A DNA stretch of 64,000 nt from Chitinophagales bacterium (GCA_020635975.1 JACJYT010000008.1:2443-66442), one strand, 5' to 3'; positions 3,293-38,500 are shown, numbered from the stretch's first letter. The notes: generated from the letters alone by a model not told the origin. Numbers and translations: made by a program.

Positions 3293-4531
3293 ATGCAGGG
3301 GCAAGCAAAAATTCACATTATTGGAGCTGGACCAGCAGGAGCTAGCGCCGCCTTGTTTCTAGCTAAGCACGGTATTGCTAGCGTAATAATTGATAAAGCT
3401 TCTTTTCCTAGAGATAAAGTTTGTGGGGATGCTTGCAGCGGAAAGGTAGCGTGGGTCTTAAAAAAGTTAGATATTCCAAATTGGCAAGAATTTATAAGTA
3501 AAAATGACTCCCTTGCTTCATGGGGCGTTAAATTTTATGGCACCAAGAATAATGAACTCCGAGTTCCATTTAAGTTGAATTACAAAGCCGAAGCTGAACT
3601 TGCACCAGGCTTTATAGCAAAGCGAATCGATTTTGATAATTATCTTATTTCCTTAGTTAAAAAGGAAAGCCTTATCGAATTAGTTGAAAATTGCTCCATT
3701 TCCTATTTTCGAAGGGAAGGAAAAACAGTTTTTTTCGGAAATGACAAACTCAATAAGCATTTCCAAAGCGATATTATTTTAGCAGCTGATGGAGCATATT
3801 CTTATGCAGCAAAATGCCTAATGTCGAGCTCTCCTTTGGAGGAAAATAATGCTTTAGGATTGAGAGCTTATTACAAAGGAGTGAAGGGTCTGGATAAGGA
3901 TGGCTTTATAGAGTTACATTTTTTGGAAGAACTCCTGCCGGGTTATTTTTGGATTTTTCCGCTAGCGAATGGTGAAGCTAATGTTGGACTTGGAATGAAA
4001 AGCGATCTAGTTAAGAAGAAAAGAATAAATCTTAAAGAGCTTTTTGAGAAGGTGGTAAAAGAACATCCTACATTTAAAGATCGTTTTGAACATGCCGAGT
4101 TGATAGACCCAATGAAGTTGCATGGCTTACCCTTGGGGGGACATAAGAATATATCCGACGATAATATCCTTCTCTTAGGTGATGCTGCGGCTCTAATTGA
4201 TCCTTTTACCGGCGAAGGAATTGGAAATGCTATGATTTCGGGCATGTTGGCTGCAGAGCTTTTAATAGACTTAGTTCCGGATCGCAATTTTTCAAAAGAA
4301 GCTTTGGTGGCTTATGATAAGTTGGTTTACAGACGACTGGCAAACGAATTGAAACTCAGTAAGAAAATGCAGGATTTAACCAGCTATCCTTGGTTATTTA
4401 ACTTTATAGTGAATAAAGCTAGAGGAAATAAAGAGCTTAGAGAAACTATTTCCTGCATGTTTGAAAATGTAGATCTAAGAAAAAAGCTTAGCAATCCTTT
4501 GTTTTATTTGAGAGTTTTATTCGGCTCGTAA
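3293..4531 (+). CDS. geranylgeranyl reductase family FAD-dependent oxidoreductase
   Basis: N-terminal dinucleotide fold IIGAGPAGASAALFLAK. GDAAALIDPFTGEGIGNAM motif typical of the GGR family. Confidence 0.75.
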   Translation: MQGQAKIHIIGAGPAGASAALFLAKHGIASVIIDKASFPRDKVCGDACSGKVAWVLKKLDIPNWQEFISKNDSLASWGVKFYGTKNNELRVPFKLNYKAEAELAPGFIAKRIDFDNYLISLVKKESLIELVENCSISYFRREGKTVFFGNDKLNKHFQSDIILAADGAYSYAAKCLMSSSPLEENNALGLRAYYKGVKGLDKDGFIELHFLEELLPGYFWIFPLANGEANVGLGMKSDLVKKKRINLKELFEKVVKEHPTFKDRFEHAELIDPMKLHGLPLGGHKNISDDNILLLGDAAALIDPFTGEGIGNAMISGMLAAELLIDLVPDRNFSKEALVAYDKLVYRRLANELKLSKKMQDLTSYPWLFNFIVNKARGNKELRETISCMFENVDLRKKLSNPLFYLRVLFGS

Positions 4532-4608: not shown

Positions 4609-4681
4609 GATTCAGTAGCTCAGCTGGTAGAGCATTACACTTTTAATGTAGGGGTCCTGGGTTCGAGCCCCAGCTGAATCA
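4609..4681 (+). tRNA. tRNA-Lys (anticodon UUU)
   Basis: Hand-folded cloverleaf. Acceptor GATTCAG/CTGAATC, D arm GCTC-AGCTGGTA-GAGC, anticodon arm TTACA-CTTTTAA-TGTAG, T arm CTGGG-TTCGAGC-CCCAG, discriminator A. No encoded CCA. Confidence 0.9.
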
Positions 4682-5148: not shown

Positions 5149-6946
5149 GAAGATTAATTTTTTTTCCTAATAAAGATATGAGCAAATATAAGAGTATAAA
5201 ACCTATCAGATAAAGCAGGTACCAAGGTACTCCAAAAGCAAATAGAACGCCGCCACAAAGTATGCTTATAAAGCCTACAATCAAAGCATAAGGCATTTGG
5301 GTTCTTACATGACTTATATGGTCGCAATGAGAGGAAAGCGAACTGAGAATGGTGGTATCTGAAATGGGGGAGCAATGATCACCAAAAACAGAGGCTGCAA
5401 GGATAACCGAAACGGTATTCAATAAAACTGGCATAAGCCGTTCTAGGTCGATTTGAGTTCCATTTACACTGGCAATTTTGATAACAATTGGAATGCATAT
5501 TGGGTACATTACGGCCATGGTATTCCAACTCGATCCTGTAGCAAAGGATATTAATGCAGATAAGATGAAAAAGATTAATGGCAACCAATAAGCGTTGAAG
5601 TTATCTGGAACCATGGAAGACAGATAATCTGCTGTCTTCAAATTTTCGATTACCCCCGCTAAGGCCCATGCTAAAATCAAAATAACAACCGCAGGTACCA
5701 TAGTCTTGAATCCATCAATCATACTTTCCATGCTTTCTTTTAGTCCACTTGCACCACTAATTAGAGAAACTAGTATAGCAACAGCACAAGCTAAAAAAGA
5801 GGCCCAAATTAATGCTTTATACGAATCTGCATTAGAGAGAACTCCTCTTAGTTTTTCTGTGAGACTAAGCTCACTTGTCCAAATTTCTGGAGAAGAACCT
5901 GTTATCAGAAGACCAATAATTACCATAAAAATCAAACTTAAAACCGGAATGGCAGCATTTAACCAATGACTAGTTTTGTCTGCCTCTCCTTCAACACTTG
6001 TTTTTTGAGGAGAATTAGCCGCCGCTTGTTCTGCTTGTAACATGGGACCAAAATCTTTCTTCAAATAGATTAGAACAAGCATAAAGAATAAGGTGAAAAT
6101 AGGGTAATACGCATATTTTAAAGAGCCTAAAAAGATAGAATAAGCACTTTGATCTATACTGAGAATATTCTGACTTGCAAGTCCTTTTTCTATTTCCGAT
6201 AATTGATAACCAATCCATGTGGTTACGAAAGCAATGGCTGCAATTGGTGCCGCTGTACTATCTACAATATAGGCTAGTTTCTCTCGAGATACCCTAAACT
6301 TGTCGGTAAGAGGGCGCATAGTATTCCCTACCACAAGACTATTGGCATAATCGTCGAAGAAAATCATACAACCCATTAACCAAGTAGCAAATTGTGCTCT
6401 TCGTGCAGACGTGGCCAATTTAGATACTTGACGAACAACGCCATTCATGCCACCATTTTTTGAAATAATATGTACCATTCCACCAATTAAAACAGAGAAA
6501 ACAATGATGGATAAATGTCCAGTTTGAAGTTCACCACCATCGGTATATGCAATGGCTTGAAGCACATAACTGTCTGCTATTTGGAAAAAGCTACTAAAAA
6601 TCTGTTTGAGCTGAAAACCATTAATGGTAAATACGCCGAAAAAAATACCAAGAACTAAGGCTATGTGAACCTCCTTAAAAACCAATGCTATAAAAATTGC
6701 AATTAAGGGCGGTAAAATGGAAAGCCAAGCAGGGAAGCTCTTTCTTTCATCCCCCTTTATCCATTCTAGGCTTTGAGAATCTTCTCGATAGTAAAGTCCA
6801 TCGCTACTTGCACTTATATCTTCTATTATTTCTTCCTCTCCCTGAGAAAGTGGTAAAAAGTCTTCGTCGTAATCTTCGTATGGTCCTCCCGCAAAAGAAA
6901 AATTATAAAACAGTAAAAAGAGATAGCTTATAAGGATATGTTTCAT
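5138..6946 (-). CDS. Na+/H+ antiporter NhaC-family membrane protein
   Basis: 602-aa polytopic membrane ORF with NhaC-like segments (FFDDYANSLVVGNTMRPLTD, GDHCSPISDTT). It has an N-terminal signal peptide plus an acidic extension. Confidence 0.7.
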   Translation of the reverse strand: MKHILISYLFLLFYNFSFAGGPYEDYDEDFLPLSQGEEEIIEDISASSDGLYYREDSQSLEWIKGDERKSFPAWLSILPPLIAIFIALVFKEVHIALVLGIFFGVFTINGFQLKQIFSSFFQIADSYVLQAIAYTDGGELQTGHLSIIVFSVLIGGMVHIISKNGGMNGVVRQVSKLATSARRAQFATWLMGCMIFFDDYANSLVVGNTMRPLTDKFRVSREKLAYIVDSTAAPIAAIAFVTTWIGYQLSEIEKGLASQNILSIDQSAYSIFLGSLKYAYYPIFTLFFMLVLIYLKKDFGPMLQAEQAAANSPQKTSVEGEADKTSHWLNAAIPVLSLIFMVIIGLLITGSSPEIWTSELSLTEKLRGVLSNADSYKALIWASFLACAVAILVSLISGASGLKESMESMIDGFKTMVPAVVILILAWALAGVIENLKTADYLSSMVPDNFNAYWLPLIFFILSALISFATGSSWNTMAVMYPICIPIVIKIASVNGTQIDLERLMPVLLNTVSVILAASVFGDHCSPISDTTILSSLSSHCDHISHVRTQMPYALIVGFISILCGGVLFAFGVPWYLLYLIGFILLYLLISLLGKKINLHEN

Positions 6947-31848: not shown

Positions 31849-34800
31849 ATGAGCTACAATCCGAAGGAAATACGAAATAAATGGCAAACTTTCTGGAAAG
31901 AAAGCGAAACTTATAAGGTGAGTAATGATCTTACGAAACCTAAGTTTTATGTACTTGATATGTTTCCTTATCCATCTGGAAGCGGCTTGCACGTTGGTCA
32001 TCCGCTAGGCTATGTAGCTAGCGATATTTATTCTAGATATAAAAGATTAAAAGGATTTAATGTACTTCACCCCATGGGCTTCGATGCCTTTGGTTTACCT
32101 GCAGAGCAATATGCTATTGAAACGGGTAAGCATCCAGGAGTTACAACAGCAGAAAATATTGCCACCTATAAAAGACAATTAAACAATATTGGACTTTCCT
32201 TTGATTGGTCGAGAGAAGTAATTACTAGTGATCCTTCTTATTATAAATGGACCCAATGGATCTTTACCTTAATGTTCAATCATTGTTATTGCAAGGCGGA
32301 AGATAAGGCGATGCCTATTTCCGATTTGCTTGCTCAGTTTGAAAAAGATGGCAATACCAAAACGAGTGCTTTTACCGACTACAATAAAAAGTTTAGTGCT
32401 AGCGAATGGAAGGCTTTCGACGCAAGCGAGAAAGATCAGATACTGATGCATTACCGTTTGGCATATCGCAAGGTGTCTTTTGTTAATTGGTGCGAGGCTT
32501 TAGGCACTGTATTAGCAAATGATGAGGTGGTAAATGGTGTTTCTGAACGCGGGGGACACCCAGTAGTGCAAAAACCTTTGATGCAATGGAGTTTAAGAAT
32601 TACCGCTTATGCCGAGCGACTTTTACAAGGTATTAAAAATTTGGATTGGTCGGAAAGCTTAAAAGCCCAACAAGAAAATTGGATAGGAAGAAGTGAAGGC
32701 GCTACGGTGTTTTTTGAAGTGGCCCCCATCCCTAACCCTTCCCCCTCGGGTGAAGGGAACCTTGGAAAGTGGATAACTGCAAATCCGGGTAGTTATAAAA
32801 GATTAGAAGCTTATGCCAAGGAAATGCGCCAAAATCCTACCACCCAAGAAGCTAGACTTTGGGAAGAATTAAGAGGTGAAAAGTTGGGCGATAAATTTAG
32901 AAGGCAGCATGTCCTTGAAAATTACATTCCTGATTTTGTTTGTTTGGAAAAAAAGTTGATTGTTGAAGTTGATGGAGAAATTCATTTTTACCCTGAAAAC
33001 ATTCAAGCTGATTTGGCAAGAGCAGAAGTATTAGAAGAGTTGGGATATAAAATTTTACGTTTTAAAAATGAAGAGGTAGATAAAAATATCTCTAGAGTCT
33101 TATTGAAAATAAGTGAAGAACTTTCAAAGCGAGAATCTTCTATAGGAACGGAAAGTTCCCCCTCGCCTGAGGAGAGGGGGCTAGGGGGTGAGGCCTTAAA
33201 ATTAGAAATCTTTACCACTCGTCCAGACACTATTTTTGGAGTTACTTTTATGGTAATTGCCCCAGAGCATGCTTTGCTCAATAGTTTAGTAAGCGCTGAG
33301 CAAGAAGAAGCGGTGAAGGCCTATATTGAAGCAACTAAATCTAGGTCGAATGTAGACCGCCAGGCTAGTAAAGAAGTGAGTGGCGTATTTACAGGATCTT
33401 ATGCTATTCATCCTTTTACAGGCAAGCAAATTCCAATTTGGATTGGCGAATATGTGCTCATTGATTATGGAACAGGAGCTATTATGGCGGTTCCAAGTGA
33501 TGATGATAGAGATTACGCCTTTGCTAAACATTTTGGTATCGAAATAATTGATATTTGTGATAAAAGTGCCTATCCTAATGCCACGAAGTCGGATAAGTTA
33601 GGCAAGATGATCAACTCCGATTTTTTAAACGGAATGGAGGTGAAAGACGCCATTGCTCTAGCTATTCAAAAATTAGTAGCACAAGGAATAGGCAACTTGA
33701 AGGTAAATTACAAACTACGTGATGCAAATTTTAGTCGCCAAAGATATTGGGGAGAACCTTTTCCAATTGCTTACGATAAAGAAGGAGCAGCTATAGATTT
33801 GCCCTTAGAAGAGCTTCCTTTAGAGTTGCCACCAATGGACGACATTAAGCCTGTTAATGGTAAAGCACCTTTAAGTAAACTTACTAATTGGAGCTATAAG
33901 GGCATGCCTTTAGACACGGATACCATGCCAGGAAATGCAGGTAGTTCCTGGTATTTTCTGCGTTATATGGATCCTAATAACGACCAGGCTTTTTGTTCCA
34001 CAGAAGCAGTAAGTTATTGGCAAGATGTGGATTTGTATATTGGGGGAACAGAACATGCTGTTGGACACTTAATGTATTCTAGATTTTGGCATAAGTTTCT
34101 TTACGACCTTGGTAAAGTTCCAACGCAAGAACCGTTCAAGAAATTGATAAATCAAGGGATGATTCAAGGCGAGAGTGCTTTTGAATACAAGGTGGTAAAC
34201 GAAAATAAATTCGTTTCTTACAACTTGAAAGATGCGTATAACACCATTCCGATTCATGTGGCGATTACCTTGGTGAATGATAAAGGGGAATTGGATCTGG
34301 AAGCAGTGAAACGGTGGAGACCAGAGCAGGCAGAAGCGGAGTTTGTGCTGGAGGATGGTAAATATATCGTTGGACATGAAGTGGAGAAAATGTCGAAATC
34401 GAAACACAATGTGGTAAATCCAGACGATGTTATTGAGGAGTACGGAGCAGATTGTTTCCGCATGTTTGAAATGTTTTTAGGTCCGATAGAAAACCATAAA
34501 CCGTGGCAAACTAAGGGCATAGATGGCGTAGCTCGCTTTTTGAGAAAATTCTGGAATCTAGCGCACAATGAGGAAGGTGCTTTTATATTGACAAATGAAG
34601 AACCTACAGAAAAGGAAATGAAAATCGTGCACACTTGTATTAAAAAGGTAAACGAGGATATAGAACGTTTTTCATTTAATACCTGTGTTTCTGCTTTTAT
34701 GATATGTGTAAATGATTTGAGCGATTTGAAATGCCATAAGCAGGCGGTAATGTCGGAATTGGTGAAATTAATTTCGCCTTTTGCTCCCCATATTGCGGAA

Positions 34801-35073
34801 GAGCTTTGGCACAAAATGGGAAATACTTCTTCTGTGGTGAAGGATGTTACCTTTCCTCAGTTCGAAGAAAAGTATCTAGTAGAATCGGTAATTTCTTACC
34901 CTGTTTCTATTAATGGAAAAATGCGTGTTAAAATAGACTTAGCAGCAGGTATTTCTCAAGAGCTAGCCAAAGAGCAAGTTCTAGCCAATGAGATTGTACA
35001 AAAATGGATGGAAGGCAATGCGCCTAAAAAATTCATTTTCGTTCCAGGCAGGATTGTGAATATCGTGGTCTAA
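31849..35073 (+). CDS. leuS: leucine--tRNA ligase carrying a 158-codon in-frame insertion
   Basis: HIGH motif (LHVGHPLGY), TTRPDTIFG at the CP1 entry, and KMSKS (VEKMSKSKHN). About 150 aa longer than expected because of the cassette at 32721-33195. Confidence 0.95.
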   Translation: MSYNPKEIRNKWQTFWKESETYKVSNDLTKPKFYVLDMFPYPSGSGLHVGHPLGYVASDIYSRYKRLKGFNVLHPMGFDAFGLPAEQYAIETGKHPGVTTAENIATYKRQLNNIGLSFDWSREVITSDPSYYKWTQWIFTLMFNHCYCKAEDKAMPISDLLAQFEKDGNTKTSAFTDYNKKFSASEWKAFDASEKDQILMHYRLAYRKVSFVNWCEALGTVLANDEVVNGVSERGGHPVVQKPLMQWSLRITAYAERLLQGIKNLDWSESLKAQQENWIGRSEGATVFFEVAPIPNPSPSGEGNLGKWITANPGSYKRLEAYAKEMRQNPTTQEARLWEELRGEKLGDKFRRQHVLENYIPDFVCLEKKLIVEVDGEIHFYPENIQADLARAEVLEELGYKILRFKNEEVDKNISRVLLKISEELSKRESSIGTESSPSPEERGLGGEALKLEIFTTRPDTIFGVTFMVIAPEHALLNSLVSAEQEEAVKAYIEATKSRSNVDRQASKEVSGVFTGSYAIHPFTGKQIPIWIGEYVLIDYGTGAIMAVPSDDDRDYAFAKHFGIEIIDICDKSAYPNATKSDKLGKMINSDFLNGMEVKDAIALAIQKLVAQGIGNLKVNYKLRDANFSRQRYWGEPFPIAYDKEGAAIDLPLEELPLELPPMDDIKPVNGKAPLSKLTNWSYKGMPLDTDTMPGNAGSSWYFLRYMDPNNDQAFCSTEAVSYWQDVDLYIGGTEHAVGHLMYSRFWHKFLYDLGKVPTQEPFKKLINQGMIQGESAFEYKVVNENKFVSYNLKDAYNTIPIHVAITLVNDKGELDLEAVKRWRPEQAEAEFVLEDGKYIVGHEVEKMSKSKHNVVNPDDVIEEYGADCFRMFEMFLGPIENHKPWQTKGIDGVARFLRKFWNLAHNEEGAFILTNEEPTEKEMKIVHTCIKKVNEDIERFSFNTCVSAFMICVNDLSDLKCHKQAVMSELVKLISPFAPHIAEELWHKMGNTSSVVKDVTFPQFEEKYLVESVISYPVSINGKMRVKIDLAAGISQELAKEQVLANEIVQKWMEGNAPKKFIFVPGRIVNIVV
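32721..33195 (+). mobile_element. TIR-bounded cassette encoding a DUF559/Vsr-like endonuclease domain, inserted in-frame in leuS
   Basis: Imperfect inverted repeats of about 40 nt, GC-rich, at 32721-32760 and 33155-33195. The interior encodes AKEMRQNPTTQEARLWEELRG..KFRRQHVLENYIPDFVCLEKKLIVEVDGEIH..LEELGYKILRFKNEEV. The codon-aligned insert 32722-33195 is 474 nt (a multiple of 3) with no stops. Confidence 0.6.
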
Positions 35074-35099: not shown

Positions 35100-35378
35100 C
35101 TAAGGACAAGCTGGATCGCCATCGCAGTCGAGGTCGTCGCAATCAATAAAACCATCTAAGTCGTTGTCGATGCCGTCGGAGCAGATTTCTGCAGTGCCAC
35201 AAGCACTGTTTCCGCTACAGTCAAAATCAGCACAATCGATAAAGCCATCCCCATCATTATCGATACCATCGTTGCACAGCTCCGTGTTATCACTTGGATC
35301 GTCTTCTTTACAAGAAGATAGCGTAGCCATTCCAAAAAGGAAAGCGAGTATTAAAATTGTTGTATTTCTGGCTTTCAT
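35100..35378 (-). CDS. small lipoprotein with two Cys-bracketed DxDxDG (EF-hand/Excalibur-like) calcium-binding repeats
   Basis: Lipobox LSSC. Two repeats: CNDGIDNDGDGFIDCADFDCSGNSAC and CSDGIDNDLDGFIDCDDLDCDGDPAC. Confidence 0.65.
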   Translation of the reverse strand: MKARNTTILILAFLFGMATLSSCKEDDPSDNTELCNDGIDNDGDGFIDCADFDCSGNSACGTAEICSDGIDNDLDGFIDCDDLDCDGDPACP

Positions 35379-35460: not shown

Positions 35461-37716
35461 TTAACGTTGCGCATCCGTTACGGCTATGCTAACTACATTA
35501 AGAATTTCTCTAACTGAAGAACCAATTTGAAGTACATGAACTGGTTTTTTCATACCCAAAAGGAGAGGCCCAATCGACTCTACCTTAGCCATTTCTTGAA
35601 TGAGCTTATAAGCAATATTTCCAGAGGAAAGATTAGGGAAAATTAGAGTGTTAGCACTTTTCTTAGCTAGGTCCGAAAAGTTAAAGAAATCGTTAACCAA
35701 CTCTGTATTAAGTGCAAAATTTGCCTGAATTTCGCCATCTGCTATTAAGTCCTTTTGTTCTTCATGCAAGAGTCTTGCCGCTTCTCTCATTTTAAGCGCA
35801 TCATCGCCTTCGTTAGATCCGAAGTTAGAATAAGAGAGTAGGGCTAAGCGTGGTTCAATTTTTAGTCGTTTTACTGCTTTCGCAACAAGTAGGCTAATAT
35901 CTGCAATTTCTCGAGCACTAGGATTGATATTTACGGTGGTATCTGCAAAGAAAAAGGGTCCGTCTTTGGTAATGATGATGTACATTCCCGCAATTTTTGA
36001 AACGCCTTCTTCTACTCCAATTACCTGCAAAGCTGGCTTAATTGCAGTGGCATAGTTTCTAGTTAAACCAGAAATCAAAGCATCCGCATCGCCAGTTTCC
36101 ACCATGGCCGACCCAAAGTAATTTCTTTCATGCATTAATTTTTCCGCTTCAAAGAGAGTTAATCCACGACGTTTTCTTTTCTCAAAAAGTATTTTAGCAT
36201 AAGCACTTCGTCGCTCTTTTTCGCTTCTTTCTCTAGGGTCAATTATAGTACATTCAAAATTTAAGCTATATTCCGACATCATAGAATGAATAAGCTCCTT
36301 ATTTCCTAAAAGTATAGGTAGTGCAATGCCTTCGTCGGCCGCAAGATATGCTGCTTTCAAAATTTTGTAATTATCGGCTTCGGCAAAAACTACGCGTTTT
36401 GGTTTTTTCTTTGCTCTTTGCGTGATGTTCTTAATCAACTTATTATCTAAGCCGAGTCTGTTTTTTAGCTCTAGTTCGTATTTATCCCAATCTTTAATGG
36501 GCGATTTAGCCACACCGCTTTCCATAGCCGCTTTGGCTACGGCTGGAGCAATGGTATAAATCAAGCGAGGATCTAAGGGTTTTGGAATAATTAAATCTTT
36601 CCCGAAACTTAAATTTCTTTCTCCATAGGCTTCATTTACTTCTTCTGGAACGGTAGCTTTTGCCAGGTCGGCTATAGCTCGAACAGCAGCTAATTTCATC
36701 GACTCATTTATACAAGATGCTCTAACATCTAGAGCTCCTCTAAAAATAAAAGGGAAACCTAAGACATTATTCACTTGATTAGGATGGTCGCTTCTTCCCG
36801 TTGCCAAAATAATATCTTCTCTCGATTCGATAGCCTCTTTGTAAGCAATTTCGGGATCCGGGTTCGCCAAGGCAAAAACTATGGGTGAGGATGCCATAGA
36901 TTTTACCATCTTCTTGCTCACTACATTTCCTTTAGATAAGCCTAAAAAAACATCCGCACCTTGCATCGCCTCTTCTAGACTCAAATCTTTTCCCTCTCGT
37001 GCGAACAAGGCTTTGTGCTCATCCAGATTTTTGCGGTCTTTGGTTAAGAGTCCTTTAGAATCGAACATATAAACATGCTTTGGGTTTACTCCGAGACTTA
37101 AATAAAGTTTAGCACATGATATGGCAGACGCACCAGCTCCGTTGATGACTACCTTTACTTTTTCAATTTTTTTATTGGCTAGTTCTAGCGCATTTAGCAG
37201 GGCTGCTGAAGAAATAATGGCGGTACCATGTTGATCGTCGTGCATTACTGGGATGTCTAATTCTGCTTTAAGTCGTCTTTCTATTTCGAAAGCTTCTGGA
37301 GCCTTAAGATCTTCCAAATTTATACCTCCAAAAGTGGGGGAGATGGCTTTTACCGTTTTGACAAATGCATCCACATCGGTTTCATTAACCTCAATGTCGA
37401 AAACATCAATATCGGCAAATATTTTAAAGAGTAAGCCTTTACCTTCCATCACGGGTTTGGAAGCTTCAGCACCTAAATCTCCTAAGCCGAGTACTGCAGT
37501 TCCATTCGAGATTACTGCCACTAAATTACCCTTGGCGGTATATTCGTATACCGTGTCGGGATTTTTGGCAATTTCAATGCAGGGTTCAGCCACACCTGGC
37601 GAGTAGGCAAGCGCTAAATCGCGTTGGGTACTAGTTGGTTTAGAGGGAATTACCTCAATTTTTCCCTTTCTACCCTGACTGTGATAGTCGAGGGCTTCGG
37701 CACGTTTTGATTTCAT
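35461..37716 (-). CDS. maeB: NADP-dependent malic enzyme (malic enzyme + PTA-like C-terminal domain)
   Basis: 751 aa. The N-terminal malic enzyme domains include LALAYSPGVAEPC and INGAGASAISC. The C-terminal half is phosphate-acetyltransferase-like. Confidence 0.9.
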   Translation of the reverse strand: MKSKRAEALDYHSQGRKGKIEVIPSKPTSTQRDLALAYSPGVAEPCIEIAKNPDTVYEYTAKGNLVAVISNGTAVLGLGDLGAEASKPVMEGKGLLFKIFADIDVFDIEVNETDVDAFVKTVKAISPTFGGINLEDLKAPEAFEIERRLKAELDIPVMHDDQHGTAIISSAALLNALELANKKIEKVKVVINGAGASAISCAKLYLSLGVNPKHVYMFDSKGLLTKDRKNLDEHKALFAREGKDLSLEEAMQGADVFLGLSKGNVVSKKMVKSMASSPIVFALANPDPEIAYKEAIESREDIILATGRSDHPNQVNNVLGFPFIFRGALDVRASCINESMKLAAVRAIADLAKATVPEEVNEAYGERNLSFGKDLIIPKPLDPRLIYTIAPAVAKAAMESGVAKSPIKDWDKYELELKNRLGLDNKLIKNITQRAKKKPKRVVFAEADNYKILKAAYLAADEGIALPILLGNKELIHSMMSEYSLNFECTIIDPRERSEKERRSAYAKILFEKRKRRGLTLFEAEKLMHERNYFGSAMVETGDADALISGLTRNYATAIKPALQVIGVEEGVSKIAGMYIIITKDGPFFFADTTVNINPSAREIADISLLVAKAVKRLKIEPRLALLSYSNFGSNEGDDALKMREAARLLHEEQKDLIADGEIQANFALNTELVNDFFNFSDLAKKSANTLIFPNLSSGNIAYKLIQEMAKVESIGPLLLGMKKPVHVLQIGSSVREILNVVSIAVTDAQR

Positions 37717-38252: not shown

Positions 38253-38404
38253 ATTAGAGAAATAGAAAAATAGAGAAATAGAGAAATAGAGAAATAGAAA
38301 AATAGAGAAATAGATGACTAGATTACTAGTCGACTAGAACAACAGTCGAACAGTCGTATGTCTAAAAATCTAAAAGTCTAAAAGTCTGGCAGTCTAAAAA
38401 TCCC
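38253..38404. repeat. 8-bp-period degenerate tandem array 1 (19 units)
   Basis: Hand-phased with no indels: attagaga aatagaaa aatagaga x3 aatagaaa aatagaga aatagatg actagatt actagtcg actagaac aacagtcg x2 tatgtcta aaaatcta aaagtcta aaagtctg gcagtcta aaaatccc. Confidence 0.9.
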
Positions 38405-38500
38405 CCCCCTCTAACTCCCCCCTTGAAAAGTGGGGAGGACGGTTTTCAATACTCACCGTCATTGCGATGAGGTGCTAGCCGAAGAAGCAATCTCATGTTA
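38401..38500. repeat. structured GC-rich element: C-run/G-run hairpin related to the leuS cassette arms, a second hairpin, and a Bacteroidota SLRGA..RRSNL-type repeat fragment
   Basis: C8 run at 38402-38409. Stem CTCCCC (38415-20)/GGGGAG (38432-37). Stem GACGGT (38438-43)/ACCGTC (38455-60). tcattgcgatgaggtgctagccgaagaagcaatctc reads SLR*GASRRSNL. Confidence 0.5.

What the first reader, a model, noticed from the sequence alone, without database searches (positions are those of the whole stretch)
32721..33195. In-frame, inverted-repeat-bounded DUF559 (Vsr-like endonuclease) cassette inside the essential leuS gene
leuS is one continuous 1074-codon ORF. Between the conserved ..GRSEGATVFFEV and LKLEIFTTRPDTIFG there are 158 extra codons (474 nt, divisible by 3, no stops). 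These two strands lead into the CP1/editing domain, and as I recall E. coli LeuRS has only a handful of residues here. The insert encodes a complete DUF559/PD-(D/E)xK-type domain with its acidic residues intact (..IPDFVCLEKKLIVEVDGEIH..). It is bounded by imperfect inverted repeats of about 40 nt: 32721-32760 GGCCCCCATCCCTAACCCTTCCCCCTCGGGTGAAGGGAAC, and 33155-33195 GTTCCCCCTCGCCTGAGGAGAGGGGGCTAGGGGGTGAGGCC. By-eye alignment gives roughly two-thirds identity. Each arm is itself a C-run/G-run hairpin, in sharp GC contrast to the AT-rich host gene. Read in frame, the arms translate as PSPSGEG and SPSPEERGLGGEA linkers. This looks like a selfish cassette that survives in an essential gene because it sits in frame in a permissive surface loop. 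That would be functionally analogous to an intein but with no splicing apparatus. Alternatively it could be a domesticated nuclease module on an aminoacyl-tRNA synthetase.
Basis: partly seen in the sequence, partly recalled or inferred. Interest (0 to 1): 0.8.

Follow-up and report, generated by a model that had tools for sequence, protein, structure and literature searches.

The report
Translated nuclease cassette inside leuS
The essential leucyl-tRNA synthetase gene carries, in frame, a small selfish-looking DNA element (a Vsr-like nuclease gene between hairpin inverted repeats) that belongs to a large family, not found described in the searched literature, sitting inside many housekeeping genes of Bacteroidota and other bacteria.

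Summary
leuS (31849-35073) holds 158 extra codons (32722-33195). They encode a complete DUF559/Vsr-like nuclease (Pfam E=4.6e-34) between two GC-rich 40-nt arms that are inverted repeats (28/41 identical; 0 of 2000 shuffles as good).

It is not a private oddity. 65 of the 120 best LeuRS relatives carry such a cassette at the same CP1 hinge, and 11 carry a second one at the other hinge. Close relatives (about 80% identical) have empty sites, arm-only footprints, or both arms without the core. Cassette lineages disagree with the host tree.

Of the 80 best metagenomic relatives, 69 lie inside long ORFs of about 20 protein families (Leu/Ile/Met/ValRS, RecG, MetH, Acs, RecJ, Tgt and others).

The repeats are conserved as DNA: the hairpin stem shows compensatory changes, and the same repeat is read in all three frames in different hosts. 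The nuclease core is under purifying selection (dN/dS 0.12-0.23) with invariant catalytic residues. AlphaFold places it as a separate domain on two disordered linkers.

Best reading: a selfish, inverted-repeat-bounded nuclease cassette tolerated because it is translated through. The window's copy looks old and vertically inherited. How it moves (homing-like or transposon-like) is unresolved. I found no description in the searched literature.

The parts
31849..35073 (+). leuS (leucine--tRNA ligase), the host gene; one uninterrupted 1074-codon ORF
   Evidence: ORF list. TIGR00396 leuS_bact E=6e-273, with the profile broken at about position 238/239 by the insert. AF2 model pLDDT 83.6.
32722..33195 (+). 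the whole in-frame cassette (158 codons): left repeat, nuclease core, right repeat
   Evidence: Absent from empty-site orthologues P0129/P0137. Translation.
32721..32760 (+). left terminal inverted repeat (TIR): outer C-rich segment CCCCCATCCCTAA plus hairpin 32736-32745/32748-32757. Translated as (A)PIPNPSPSGEGN; predicted disordered linker
   Evidence: Matches the TIR covariance model R1 on the + strand at 23.2 bits. LeuRS residues 295-309 have pLDDT<50. Nearly identical DNA in L005, L007 and L006.
32800..33123 (+). DUF559 / Vsr-like PD-(D/E)xK nuclease core (LeuRS residues 318-425)
   Evidence: Pfam PF04480. PDB 3hrl E=1.5e-38 and I-Bth0305I 3r3p E=1.4e-6 by sequence. Foldseek TM 0.90 to 3hrl and 0.79 to 3r3p. 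Folded, pLDDT 75-87 in the full model.
32926..32985 (+). catalytic motif IPDFVCLEKKLIVEVDGEIH (D362, E373, D375, H379 of LeuRS; D71, E82, D84, H88 of the insert)
   Evidence: These residues are invariant in 30 embedded and standalone relatives.
33155..33195 (+). right terminal inverted repeat: hairpin 33158-33168/33170-33180 plus outer segment CTAGGGGGTGAGGCC. Translated as SSPSPEERGLGGEA; predicted disordered linker
   Evidence: Matches R1 on the minus strand at 30 bits. Residues 433-448 have pLDDT<50.
33214..33231 (+). TTRPDT codons, the conserved threonine-rich motif of the CP1 editing domain, six codons downstream of the cassette. The cassette sits just before this motif in LeuRS and before TTRPET in ValRS
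   Evidence: LeuRS of 38-63% identity to the reference. (ValRS P0042, L010, L070).
38398..38443 (+). candidate solo TIR-like hairpin in an intergenic stretch (weak; membership uncertain)
   Evidence: R1 22.8 bits, E=0.015. Sequence TCCCCCCCCTCTAACTCCCCCCTTGAAAAGTGGGGAGGA. No ORF of 50 aa or more over it.

Best explanation
The segment is one copy of a selfish genetic cassette about 0.45-0.5 kb long. The cassette is a single Vsr-like (DUF559, PD-(D/E)xK) nuclease gene bounded by terminal inverted repeats of about 35-40 nt, each an outer C-rich block plus a G:C hairpin. It has no start, stop or splicing apparatus of its own.

It persists inside an essential gene because it is translated straight through. 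The repeats are C/G-rich sequences that stay open in the reading frames in which they are found (all three are used) and give Pro/Ser/Gly/Glu-rich flexible linkers. The nuclease therefore hangs as an independent domain off the loop between the two strands that lead from the catalytic core into the CP1 editing domain.

Shown here:
- The architecture, and the family's wide distribution in and outside genes.
- Repeated use of the same LeuRS and ValRS hinge sites.
- Presence, absence and decay among close relatives.
- Disagreement between cassette and host trees.
- Nucleotide-level conservation and covariation of the repeats.
- Purifying selection on the nuclease.

Inferred:
- The fusion protein is made and works as LeuRS.
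- The nuclease is active and drives spread. I think the most likely route is cutting cassette-free alleles or sites and being copied in by the host's recombinational repair (homing-like), with the hairpin repeats as the element's cis-acting ends.
- The window's copy descends vertically from one acquisition in the ancestor of its clade and is ageing. Its arms are 68% alike, against 90-100% in many other copies, while the nuclease is still intact.
For: 1. Anatomy. Full DUF559 domain between significant inverted repeats. The AF2 model shows a folded core on two disordered linkers between hinge strands E281-291 and E451-456.

2. Same site in many hosts. 65 of the 120 top LeuRS relatives carry DUF559 between WIGxSxGAxVxF and V(F/Y)TTRPDT. 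11 also carry one at the second CP1 hinge, and P0218 carries one only there. ValRS carries it before TTRPET.

3. Gain, decay and loss. Relatives about 80% identical have truly empty sites (L008), an AT-decayed left arm only (L009, P0130 group), a right arm only (P0167), or both arms with the core deleted at a 3-nt microhomology (L006 versus L007).

4. Mobility signals. Hosts 86% identical (P0231, P0219) carry cassettes only 40% identical, with different arm types. Cassette clusters A, B and D are interleaved on the host tree. Second-site cassettes are polyphyletic: P0190 site 2 is 71% identical to P0237 site 1 but 57% to its own site 1. The ValRS cassette P0042 is 79% identical to P0010, the valS cassette of Draconibacterium halophilum that was called as a separate ORF. 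Cassettes in different host genes are up to 65-69% identical, e.g. Acs versus RecJ and LeuRS versus Tgt.

5. Breadth. 69 of the 80 best metagenomic relatives lie inside long ORFs of LeuRS, IleRS, MetRS, ValRS, RecG, MetH, Acs, a TsaD-family protein, an IcmF-like protein, UvrD-like and Lhr helicases, AroC, MnmE, CinA, RecJ, Tgt, Gmk, HsdR, a type ISP enzyme and DNA methylases.

6. The repeats are DNA-level features. 59 of 79 loci have inverted-repeat scores above every shuffle, and within one element identity reaches 38/38. Stem pairs show compensatory U-A to C-G swaps: 59 cells changed on both sides against 21 in shuffles, 0 of 500 shuffles as high, and slid controls are lower. The same repeat is read in all three frames. 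A covariance model finds left repeats on the + strand and right repeats on the minus strand in loci it was not trained on.

7. Nuclease kept functional. D71, E82, D84 and H88 are invariant. Core dN/dS is 0.12-0.23, against 0.10-0.18 for the host.

8. The nearest solved relative with a known function is a homing endonuclease, I-Bth0305I.
Against: - No experiment shows the protein retains the insert, that the nuclease cuts anything, or that any copy moves.
- No target-site duplication and no common target motif were seen.
- A PD-(D/E)xK nuclease of about 110 aa has no known strand-transfer activity and lacks the extra DNA-binding domain of I-Bth0305I.
- Classical homing needs no terminal repeats, so the conserved repeats are not explained by a pure homing model.
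- Recurrent use of the CP1 hinges could reflect protein tolerance (few permissive loops) rather than DNA target specificity. The distance to TTRPDT varies from 0 to 9 codons.
- In the window's own clade all cassettes are one lineage (cluster C), so this particular copy gives no evidence of recent movement.
- Strong purifying selection on the nuclease would also fit a host-beneficial role.
- Biases: metagenomic loci were ranked by similarity to an arm-containing query; hairpin windows were chosen by a hairpin finder; the host tree is a rough NJ tree; dS is near saturation for many pairs.
Confidence: 0.72

Rival explanations
1. Same selfish cassette, but it moves as a miniature autonomous transposon rather than by homing. 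The nuclease recognises its own hairpin repeats and cuts the element out or nicks it, perhaps through a single-stranded or cruciform intermediate as in REP/RAYT or IS200/IS605 systems. The element then lands at many sites, and selection keeps only in-frame insertions in tolerant loops. Arm-only units would be its non-autonomous derivatives.
For: The repeat pair is conserved within each element, up to 100%. Arm type changes together with nuclease subfamily. Hairpin covariation is present. At least 25 different host sites occur among 80 loci. There are 41 extra repeat units away from cassette ends, 26 of them inside the same host ORFs, several as abutted +/- pairs. Some loci have tandem repeat units (L012). 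Standalone intergenic copies also carry the repeats. The repeats flank a second passenger domain in L067.
Against: No target-site duplication. No DDE, HUH or serine recombinase domain. PD-(D/E)xK nucleases only hydrolyse DNA. Only one cassette occurs in 64 kb of this genome. Exactly the same hinge is hit again and again in LeuRS of 38-80% identity and in ValRS, which random insertion plus selection explains less easily. Arm-only units can arise in place by deletion, as L006 versus L007 shows.
Confidence: 0.3
2. The nuclease is a domesticated, host-beneficial module of the synthetase, for example a DNA- or RNA-directed activity tethered to LeuRS or a regulatory or defence function. The repeats would be relics of how it arrived.
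For: Strong purifying selection on the core (dN/dS 0.12-0.23). Invariant catalytic residues. Long retention in some clades, with core dS close to host dS for L052 versus L064.
Against: The same cassette sits in about 20 unrelated housekeeping proteins and also as a standalone gene. It has been lost repeatedly among close LeuRS relatives without replacement. Different cassette lineages occupy the same site in close hosts. The repeats are kept at the DNA level, which a host function does not need.
Confidence: 0.07
3. It is an inert relic: an ancient one-off domain insertion, now neutral, with no present mobility or activity in any lineage.
For: The window's arms are degenerate, 68% identical, with weak hairpin z-scores. 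Its clade has one cassette lineage with losses only.
Against: Purifying selection and invariant active-site residues. Near-perfect repeats in many other copies. Cassette and host trees disagree. There are many host genes and sites.
Confidence: 0.05
4. The segment is removed before the mature enzyme is made, by an unrecognised RNA or protein splicing step, so LeuRS is normal.
For: The two arms could pair with each other in the mRNA and bring the junctions together. Nothing measured here looks at RNA or protein.
Against: No ribozyme or intron family matched. No HINT or intein domain is present, and there are no conserved splice-junction nucleophiles: the insert starts A-P-I, ends G-E-A, and is followed by variable residues. 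Frame and openness are kept across both junctions in 69 of 80 loci and in 65 LeuRS genes. The repeats avoid stops in whichever frame they are read. Neither would be needed if the segment were spliced from the RNA.
Confidence: 0.04

Closest known systems
Inteins carrying homing endonucleases
   Same: In-frame insertion in conserved, often essential, nucleic-acid-metabolism and housekeeping proteins. Sporadic distribution with empty and decayed sites. Carries a nuclease. Expressed through the host gene.
   Different: No HINT splicing domain and no junction nucleophiles, so the insert is predicted to stay in the protein. It has terminal inverted DNA repeats, which inteins lack. The nuclease is Vsr-like rather than LAGLIDADG or HNH.
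I-Bth0305I / EDxHD Vsr-like homing endonucleases, including the free-standing endonucleases of 'fractured genes' (PDB 3r3p; PMC2677866; PMC3424549 groups Vsr, DUF559 and 3r3p together)
   Same: Homologous catalytic fold, detectable by sequence profile (E=1.4e-6) and by structure (TM 0.79). Associated with insertion sites in conserved genes.
   Different: Those enzymes live in group I introns, inteins or between split-intein gene halves, and have an additional DNA-binding region. Here there is no intron or intein, only about 25 extra N-terminal residues, and hairpin repeats at both ends.
Homing endonuclease ORFs fused in frame to organellar genes (LAGLIDADG ORFs in fungal mitochondrial rps3; the endonuclease ORF at the end of Allomyces atp6) and the phage endonuclease that splits nrdA (from my own knowledge, not checked here)
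   Same: A nuclease gene inserted directly into coding sequence without a splicing element, expressed by read-through or fusion.
   Different: Different nuclease families, organellar or phage settings, no conserved terminal inverted repeats, and single or few host genes rather than about 20 bacterial families.
Rickettsia palindromic elements (RPEs; mentioned in PMC1779305) and yeast mitochondrial GC clusters (PMC4478555)
   Same: [quoted passage not shown] The solo and paired repeat units seen here inside ORFs behave in this way.
   Different: RPEs and GC clusters encode no protein. Here the repeats bracket a nuclease gene. Sequences are unrelated as far as seen. The taxa are Bacteroidota and others.
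REP sequences with their RAYT transposase ('REPtrons') and MITEs (PMC3733652, PMC3184786, PMC10969869)
   Same: A small nuclease gene flanked by inverted copies of a GC-rich hairpin repeat that also occurs alone elsewhere. Arm-only derivatives resemble MITEs.
   Different: RAYTs are HUH/Y1 enzymes and REPs are extragenic. Here the enzyme is PD-(D/E)xK and the element lives inside ORFs and is translated. No target-site duplication was found.
DUF559 family proteins such as E. coli YcjD and N. gonorrhoeae NGO0050 (PDB 3hrl)
   Same: The same domain: 3hrl E=1.5e-38, TM 0.90.
   Different: Those are annotated as standalone proteins of unknown function. The embedded, repeat-bounded form was not described in the papers I could search.

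Membership tests
DUF559 / Vsr-like PD-(D/E)xK endonuclease (Pfam PF04480) | Full-length match to the family profile above the curated cut-off | tested here: met
   117 bits against a cut-off of 20.6, profile positions 2-108 of 109. NCBIfam PRK09767 match E=3e-21, below that equivalog's own cut-off.
DUF559 / Vsr-like PD-(D/E)xK endonuclease (Pfam PF04480) | Conserved acidic and histidine residues of the active site | tested here: met
   D71, E82, D84 and H88 (insert numbering) are invariant in 30 relatives, and the window's copy has all of them.
DUF559 / Vsr-like PD-(D/E)xK endonuclease (Pfam PF04480) | Vsr-like fold | tested here: met
   AF2 core pLDDT above 90. Foldseek: 3hrl TM 0.90, 3r3p 0.79, Vsr 1vsr also matched.
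DUF559 / Vsr-like PD-(D/E)xK endonuclease (Pfam PF04480) | Nuclease activity | not testable with these tools
   Needs biochemistry.
Intein | HINT splicing domain (blocks A, B, F, G) | tested here: not met
   Only DUF559 and MTES_1575 match the insert in Pfam. At 158 aa there is no room for a HINT domain beside the nuclease.
Intein | Nucleophile (C/S/T) at the first residue of the insert and at the first residue after it; His-Asn at the insert's end | tested here: not met
   The insert starts A-P-I and ends G-E-A, and the next residue is L. In homologues the junction residues vary: L, K, E, V, S.
Intein | In-frame insertion in a conserved host protein with sporadic distribution | tested here: met
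Homing endonuclease gene | Optional presence at one fixed site of a conserved gene, with empty and degenerate alleles | tested here: met
Homing endonuclease gene | Housed in a self-splicing intron or intein, or free-standing between genes | tested here: not met
   No Rfam intron match, no intein, and the ORF is continuous with the host. Other family members are free-standing.
Homing endonuclease gene | The enzyme cleaves the cassette-free allele at or near the insertion site | not testable with these tools
   Needs a cleavage assay on the empty leuS site (e.g. the L008 sequence).
Homing endonuclease gene | Element phylogeny discordant with host phylogeny (horizontal spread) | tested here: met
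   Met for the family. Not seen within the window's own clade, where only cluster C occurs.
TIR DNA transposon / MITE | Terminal inverted repeats | tested here: met
   Window: 28/41 identical, P<0.0005. 59 of 79 loci score above all shuffles.
TIR DNA transposon / MITE | Target-site duplication | tested here: not met
   No direct repeats flank the repeats in 50 loci. In the window, GGCC occurs at both edges but is part of the palindromic repeat itself.
TIR DNA transposon / MITE | A recognised transposase (DDE, HUH, serine or tyrosine) | tested here: not met
   Only a PD-(D/E)xK nuclease is present.
TIR DNA transposon / MITE | Several copies within one genome | tested here: inconclusive
   One cassette and one weak solo repeat in 64 kb. 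The rest of this genome could not be read. Other loci hold several repeat units.
REP / RAYT (REPtron) | Enzyme gene flanked by inverted copies of a hairpin repeat that is also dispersed alone | tested here: met
REP / RAYT (REPtron) | HUH/Y1 transposase; extragenic location | tested here: not met
   The enzyme is DUF559, not Y1. 69 of 80 copies are intragenic.
In-frame palindromic elements (RPE-like) | Palindromic repeat inserted in frame and translated within host proteins | tested here: met
   The arms and 26 extra repeat units lie inside uninterrupted host ORFs. That they are translated is inferred.
In-frame palindromic elements (RPE-like) | Non-coding element without an enzyme of its own | tested here: not met
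   The cassette encodes a nuclease.

The most novel reading that the evidence does not exclude
These cassettes are a distinct class of autonomous mobile element, among the smallest known at about 0.5 kb. Its only gene is a Vsr-like nuclease. Its hairpin terminal repeats serve two purposes: they are cis-acting ends at the DNA level, and they are stop-free, frame-tolerant linker-coding sequence. This lets the element colonise essential genes by being translated rather than spliced out. In effect it would be a 'translated transposon' or splicing-free intein analogue, and a natural engine of domain insertion in bacterial proteins.
Probability: 0.4. Interest if true: 0.9.

Novelty: new variant of a known kind. 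Interest (0 to 1): 0.8.

Why it matters
If this holds, there is a third way for a selfish nuclease gene to live inside an essential gene, besides hiding in a self-splicing intron or an intein. The element stays in the protein, using end repeats that stay readable in whichever frame they are read.

Practical consequences:

1. Annotation. Many proteins labelled 'endonuclease domain-containing protein', odd multi-domain synthetases, helicases and methionine synthases, and split gene calls in long-read assemblies probably come from these cassettes.

2. Protein engineering. The insertion sites form a natural, evolution-tested map of places where Leu/Ile/Val/MetRS, RecG, MetH, Acs, Tgt and others tolerate a 150-residue domain.

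3. Enzymology. DUF559 would gain a biological role, and the family may offer small nucleases or nickases with new specificities, possibly for hairpin or cruciform DNA.

4. Evolution. The cassettes give a concrete mechanism for domain accretion, and a system in which the gain-decay-loss cycle of selfish elements can be followed in abundant environmental bacteria.

5. RNA motif surveys. Some catalogued 'sRNA motifs' may really be these repeats (weak hits only).

Tried and rejected
The window's own genome could not be surveyed for further copies.
- The first metagenome scan with a 30-sequence alignment failed because no stretch was conserved enough. A tighter alignment worked.
- Search for target-site duplications or a shared target motif at 50 junctions: none convincing, only AT/T-rich flanks typical of the hosts.
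- Direct-repeat reading of the arms (repeat finder family D4): rejected, because over the full 40 nt only the inverted orientation is significant.
- Ribozyme or intron check with Rfam on the region: nothing but a sub-threshold Chlorobi-1 hit on the left arm.
- Intein reading: rejected on domain content and junction residues.
- Frameshifted valS cassettes in D. halophilum and an ENA contig looked at first like out-of-frame or programmed-frameshift insertions. The breaks are 1-nt indels in G/C runs, with further breaks elsewhere in the same genes, so I attribute them to long-read homopolymer errors.
- Phage and plasmid collections: few and distant matches, so no sign that phages or plasmids are the main carriers.
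- The first dN/dS script timed out and was rewritten. Many pairs have saturated dS and were not used.
- Eight literature searches and three papers read found no description of DUF559 cassettes inside genes. The library lacks most subscription journals, so prior description cannot be excluded.
Full report
**1. The observation**

The window holds one 1074-codon ORF, 31849-35073 (+), which is leuS (TIGR00396 E=6e-273). Between ..GRSEGATVFFEV and LKLEIFTTRPDT there are 158 extra codons.

The insert matches Pfam DUF559 (PF04480) over almost the whole profile (E=4.6e-34), and more weakly the related REase_MTES_1575 and Vsr models.

The two arms (32721-32760 and 33155-33195) align as inverted repeats with 28 of 41 positions identical. 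None of 2000 shuffles reached that score, and the direct orientation is not significant. Each arm contains a 10-11 bp hairpin. In this copy the hairpins are only modestly more stable than shuffled sequence.

The arms are GC islands (0.58-0.60) in a 37% GC window. No second nuclease copy lies in the 64 kb. The window corresponds to a MAG contig, GCA_041392415.1 JAWKMD010000018.1.

**2. The insert is optional and recurrent in LeuRS**

Among the 120 best LeuRS relatives, 65 carry a DUF559 domain. It is always between the WIGxSxGAxVxF strand and V(F/Y)TTRPDT. It is always flanked by Pro/Ser/Gly-rich peptides of the types LTPNPSPxGEG (N side) and SPLSxxRGxGGE(A/V) (C side).

Eleven proteins carry a second cassette at reference positions about 525-533, the return hinge of the CP1 editing domain. 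P0218 has only that one.

The window's closest relatives (77-82% identity outside the insert) mostly lack the cassette. At DNA level:

- L008 (P0129) is truly empty: ..TTTGAAGTTTGTGATGAAAAAATTGAAGTATTTACTACT.
- L009 (P0130 group) keeps a recognisable left arm that has drifted toward AT.
- P0167 keeps only a right arm.
- L006 (P0168) keeps both arms with the core removed, and differs from its filled relative L007 by a deletion bounded by a 3-nt AAC microhomology.

This is the gain, decay and loss pattern expected of an optional element, not of a fixed domain.

**3. Cassette history disagrees with host history**

Across 2016 pairs of site-1 cassettes, host and cassette identity correlate only weakly (Spearman 0.28). 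Hosts 86% identical (P0231, P0219) carry cassettes 40% identical with different arm types. Other hosts 76-79% identical carry cassettes 78-79% identical.

On a neighbour-joining tree of the host parts, cassette clusters A, B and D are interleaved in the larger clade. Second-site cassettes are polyphyletic: P0190 site 2 is 71% identical to the site-1 cassette of P0237 but 57% to its own site-1 neighbour.

The window's own clade differs. All its cassettes belong to one cluster (C) scattered among empty and footprint alleles. That fits one ancestral acquisition followed by several losses.

The window's copy therefore looks old. Its arms are 68% alike, whereas many other copies have arms 90-100% alike.

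**4. The family is far wider than LeuRS**

Homologues of the insert are mostly called as proteins of 110-170 aa. Many show the same arm peptides at both ends. Some are fragments of LeuRS, and P0042 is part of a ValRS gene with the cassette directly before TTRPET.

The D. halophilum protein P0010, 79% identical to the P0042 cassette, also proved to lie inside valS (L010), where the gene caller split it off as a separate ORF.

A metagenome scan returned 80 loci. In 69 of them the nuclease lies inside a long uninterrupted ORF. Clustering and family searches identify the hosts as follows:

- LeuRS (sites 1 and 2, in enzymes 38-63% identical to the reference), IleRS, MetRS and ValRS.
- RecG (6 loci), MetH (3), acetyl-CoA synthetase (3).
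- A TsaD-family protein (2), an IcmF-like MeaB-mutase fusion (2), a UvrD-like helicase (2), chorismate synthase (2).
- Lhr, MnmE, CinA, RecJ, Tgt and guanylate kinase.
- A type I restriction R subunit, a type ISP/MmeI-like enzyme and a DNA methylase.

Cassettes in different host genes can be 62-69% identical, for example Acs versus RecJ and LeuRS versus Tgt or chorismate synthase.

Standalone intergenic copies also exist and carry the same arms.

This breadth argues against a LeuRS-specific function.

**5. The arms are true terminal inverted repeats conserved as DNA**

In 59 of 79 loci the inverted-repeat score between the two flanks exceeds every one of 30 shuffles (mean 38.5, against 16.4 shuffled and 23.7 direct). 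Identity within one element reaches 38/38.

The common form is (G)ACCTCACCCC-YRR-CCCCTCTCC-AAA-GGAGAGGGG. It consists of an outer C-rich block followed by a 7-10 bp stem and a 3-nt loop. Subfamilies have stems CCTTTCC/GGAAAGG, CCCCTCC/GGAGGGG and CCCCCCC/GGGGGGG.

On a MAFFT alignment of 62 repeats:

- 90% of stem cells pair, against 81% in shuffles.
- 59 cells show changes on both sides, against 21 in shuffles (0 of 500 shuffles as high).
- The covariation score is 0.314, against 0.170 shuffled and 0.14-0.21 for slid partners.

One caveat applies: the windows were picked with a hairpin finder, which favours pairing.

The same DNA repeat is read in all three frames in different hosts (left 22/13/9, right 20/17/7). 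It gives different peptides, such as DLTPNPSPKERGT, KPHPQPLSSGEGS and DLSPALSRGEGG. The conservation is therefore at the nucleotide level, not the peptide level.

A covariance model built from the alignment finds left repeats on the + strand and right repeats on the minus strand, including in loci outside the training set. It also finds 41 further units away from cassette ends. Of these, 26 lie inside the same uninterrupted host ORFs, some as abutted +/- pairs. These are arm-only elements.

No target-site duplication or shared target motif was found.

**6. The nuclease is kept intact**

E43, W47, Q62, D71, F72, E82, D84, G85, H88 and R113 (insert numbering) are invariant across 30 embedded and standalone relatives.

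For pairs with unsaturated dS, the core has dN/dS of 0.12-0.23, close to the flanking LeuRS at 0.10-0.18.

A profile of the family hits PDB 3hrl (a DUF559 protein, E=1.5e-38). It also hits the catalytic domain of the homing endonuclease I-Bth0305I (3r3p, E=1.4e-6). The AF2 model of the insert matches both (TM 0.90 and 0.79), and Vsr as well.

**7. Structure of the fusion**

The AF2 model of the whole protein (pLDDT 83.6) shows the arms (residues 295-309 and 433-448) as low-confidence, unstructured linkers. The core (313-431) is a folded α/β domain, set between the two hinge strands E281-291 and E451-456.

From my own knowledge of LeuRS structures, these strands are the connection between the Rossmann-fold body and the CP1 editing domain.

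**8. What it is not**

- Not an intein. There is no HINT domain and no conserved junction nucleophiles.
- Not an intron. No ribozyme family matched, and frame and openness are conserved across both junctions in dozens of hosts.
- Not an assembly artefact. The architecture recurs in more than 100 independent assemblies.

Two valS copies that appear frameshifted (D. halophilum CP048409.1 and an ENA long-read contig) are broken by single-base indels in G/C runs and elsewhere in the gene. I read these as homopolymer errors.

**9. How it most likely works**

Shown:

- A compact cassette (inverted repeat, nuclease, inverted repeat) occurs standalone and in frame inside many conserved genes.
- It is optional, decays, and its lineages move relative to hosts.
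- Its ends are conserved as structured DNA.
- Its nuclease is under selection.

Inferred:

- The host gene supplies transcription and translation.
- The repeats double as stop-free linker-coding sequence, so the host protein survives.
- The nuclease promotes the element's spread.

Two routes of spread fit parts of the evidence.

- *Homing-like copying into cassette-free alleles.* This fits the repeated use of exactly the same hinge in LeuRS and ValRS, the intein-like choice of hosts, and homology with a homing endonuclease.
- *Repeat-directed transposition followed by selection for in-frame, tolerated insertions.* This fits the conserved, co-varying ends, the many sites, the arm-only units and the tandem repeats.

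I favour the first for spread between genomes at a given site, with the repeats as cis-acting ends whose exact role is unknown. The data here cannot decide between them.

A host-beneficial role is possible but unlikely, given the hosts' diversity and the frequent losses.

**10. Novelty**

The searched library (PMC open access plus bioRxiv) yielded no paper describing DUF559 cassettes inside genes. The closest remarks found were:

- A C-terminal DUF559 fusion to a SPOUT methyltransferase (PMC1829167).
- The grouping of Vsr, DUF559 and I-Bth0305I in one clade (PMC3424549).

The phenomenon combines traits of inteins and homing endonuclease genes, Rickettsia palindromic elements, and REP/RAYT units, without meeting the defining features of any of them. 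I rate it a new variant of a known kind (selfish nuclease elements in conserved genes). The library is incomplete, so prior description cannot be excluded.

**11. Limits**

- No wet-lab evidence.
- The genome of origin could not be surveyed.
- Metagenomic loci were ranked by similarity to an arm-containing query, which may inflate the embedded fraction.
- The host tree is a simple NJ tree.
- dS is saturated for many pairs, including window versus L005.
- Hairpin statistics partly reflect how the windows were chosen.

Noticed in passing
window 38398-38443 (+): Intergenic hairpin TCCCCCCCCTCTAACTCCCCCCTTGAAAAGTGGGGAGGA resembles a solo copy of the cassette's terminal repeat (covariance model 22.8 bits, E=0.015). 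It is preceded by a short AGTCTAAAA tandem repeat.
   Followed up: partly
L067:2349-3382 (metagenomic LeuRS, site 1): Between a left arm and a middle arm sits an extra domain of about 190 aa that looks like an alpha/beta-hydrolase (..GHSLGV..). The DUF559 core and right arm follow. The same hairpin arms can therefore bracket a second passenger. A further abutted +/- arm pair lies at 4225-4309 in the same ORF.
   Followed up: partly
L010:4880-5480 and 6018-6102 (Draconibacterium halophilum CP048409.1 valS); L011:4900-5420: valS carries the cassette before TTRPET but is split into 4 ORFs by single-base indels in the G/C runs of the arms and near a further solo repeat (6063-6102). This is probably long-read homopolymer error and is a likely source of mis-annotated 'endonuclease domain-containing protein' genes. 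Real phase variation was not excluded.
   Followed up: partly
window 32703-32763 (-); L035:2989-3022 and 3415-3450; L022:3377-3483: The terminal repeats give sub-threshold Rfam hits to the candidate sRNA motifs Chlorobi-1 (17 bits), whalefall-1 (22-23 bits, both repeats of L035) and sRNA41. Some catalogued 'sRNA motifs' might be these repeats.
   Followed up: no
L002:700-3690 and 3443-4408 (Flavobacteriales MAG): A 996-aa N6-methyltransferase/restriction-type ORF contains a solo arm in frame (..LTPSPSPKERGA..). Several more arm units surround the neighbouring standalone DUF559 gene.
   Followed up: partly
L012:1-122 and 500-590; P0171; L029:3482-3734: The terminal repeats can be tandemly multiplied: two or three units per end, and up to five units downstream of the cassette in L029.
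   Followed up: no
P0054 (Paceibacterota protein, 217 aa): A DUF559 domain is itself interrupted by a short arm-like peptide (..LRDLAPSPSGMAGIRFRRQH..) and is fused through an arm (PPSPSERGTGGEV) to an unrelated C-terminal domain.
   Followed up: no
window 35461-37716 (-) versus L004:13613-15864: The malic enzyme/PTA fusion gene is one intact 751-aa ORF in the window but is split into three ORFs in the NCBI contig that encodes the identical LeuRS. The two assemblies of this region differ.
   Followed up: no
window 35100-35378 (-): A 92-aa ORF with a signal/lipoprotein-like start and two Cys/Asp-rich repeats (C.DGIDND.DGFIDC.D.DC), directly downstream of leuS on the opposite strand.
   Followed up: no
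window 4609-4681 (+); L022:1872-1949: One tRNA gene in the window (Rfam 69 bits). A Flavo-1 RNA (74.6 bits) lies upstream of the cassette-bearing leuS in L022.
   Followed up: no
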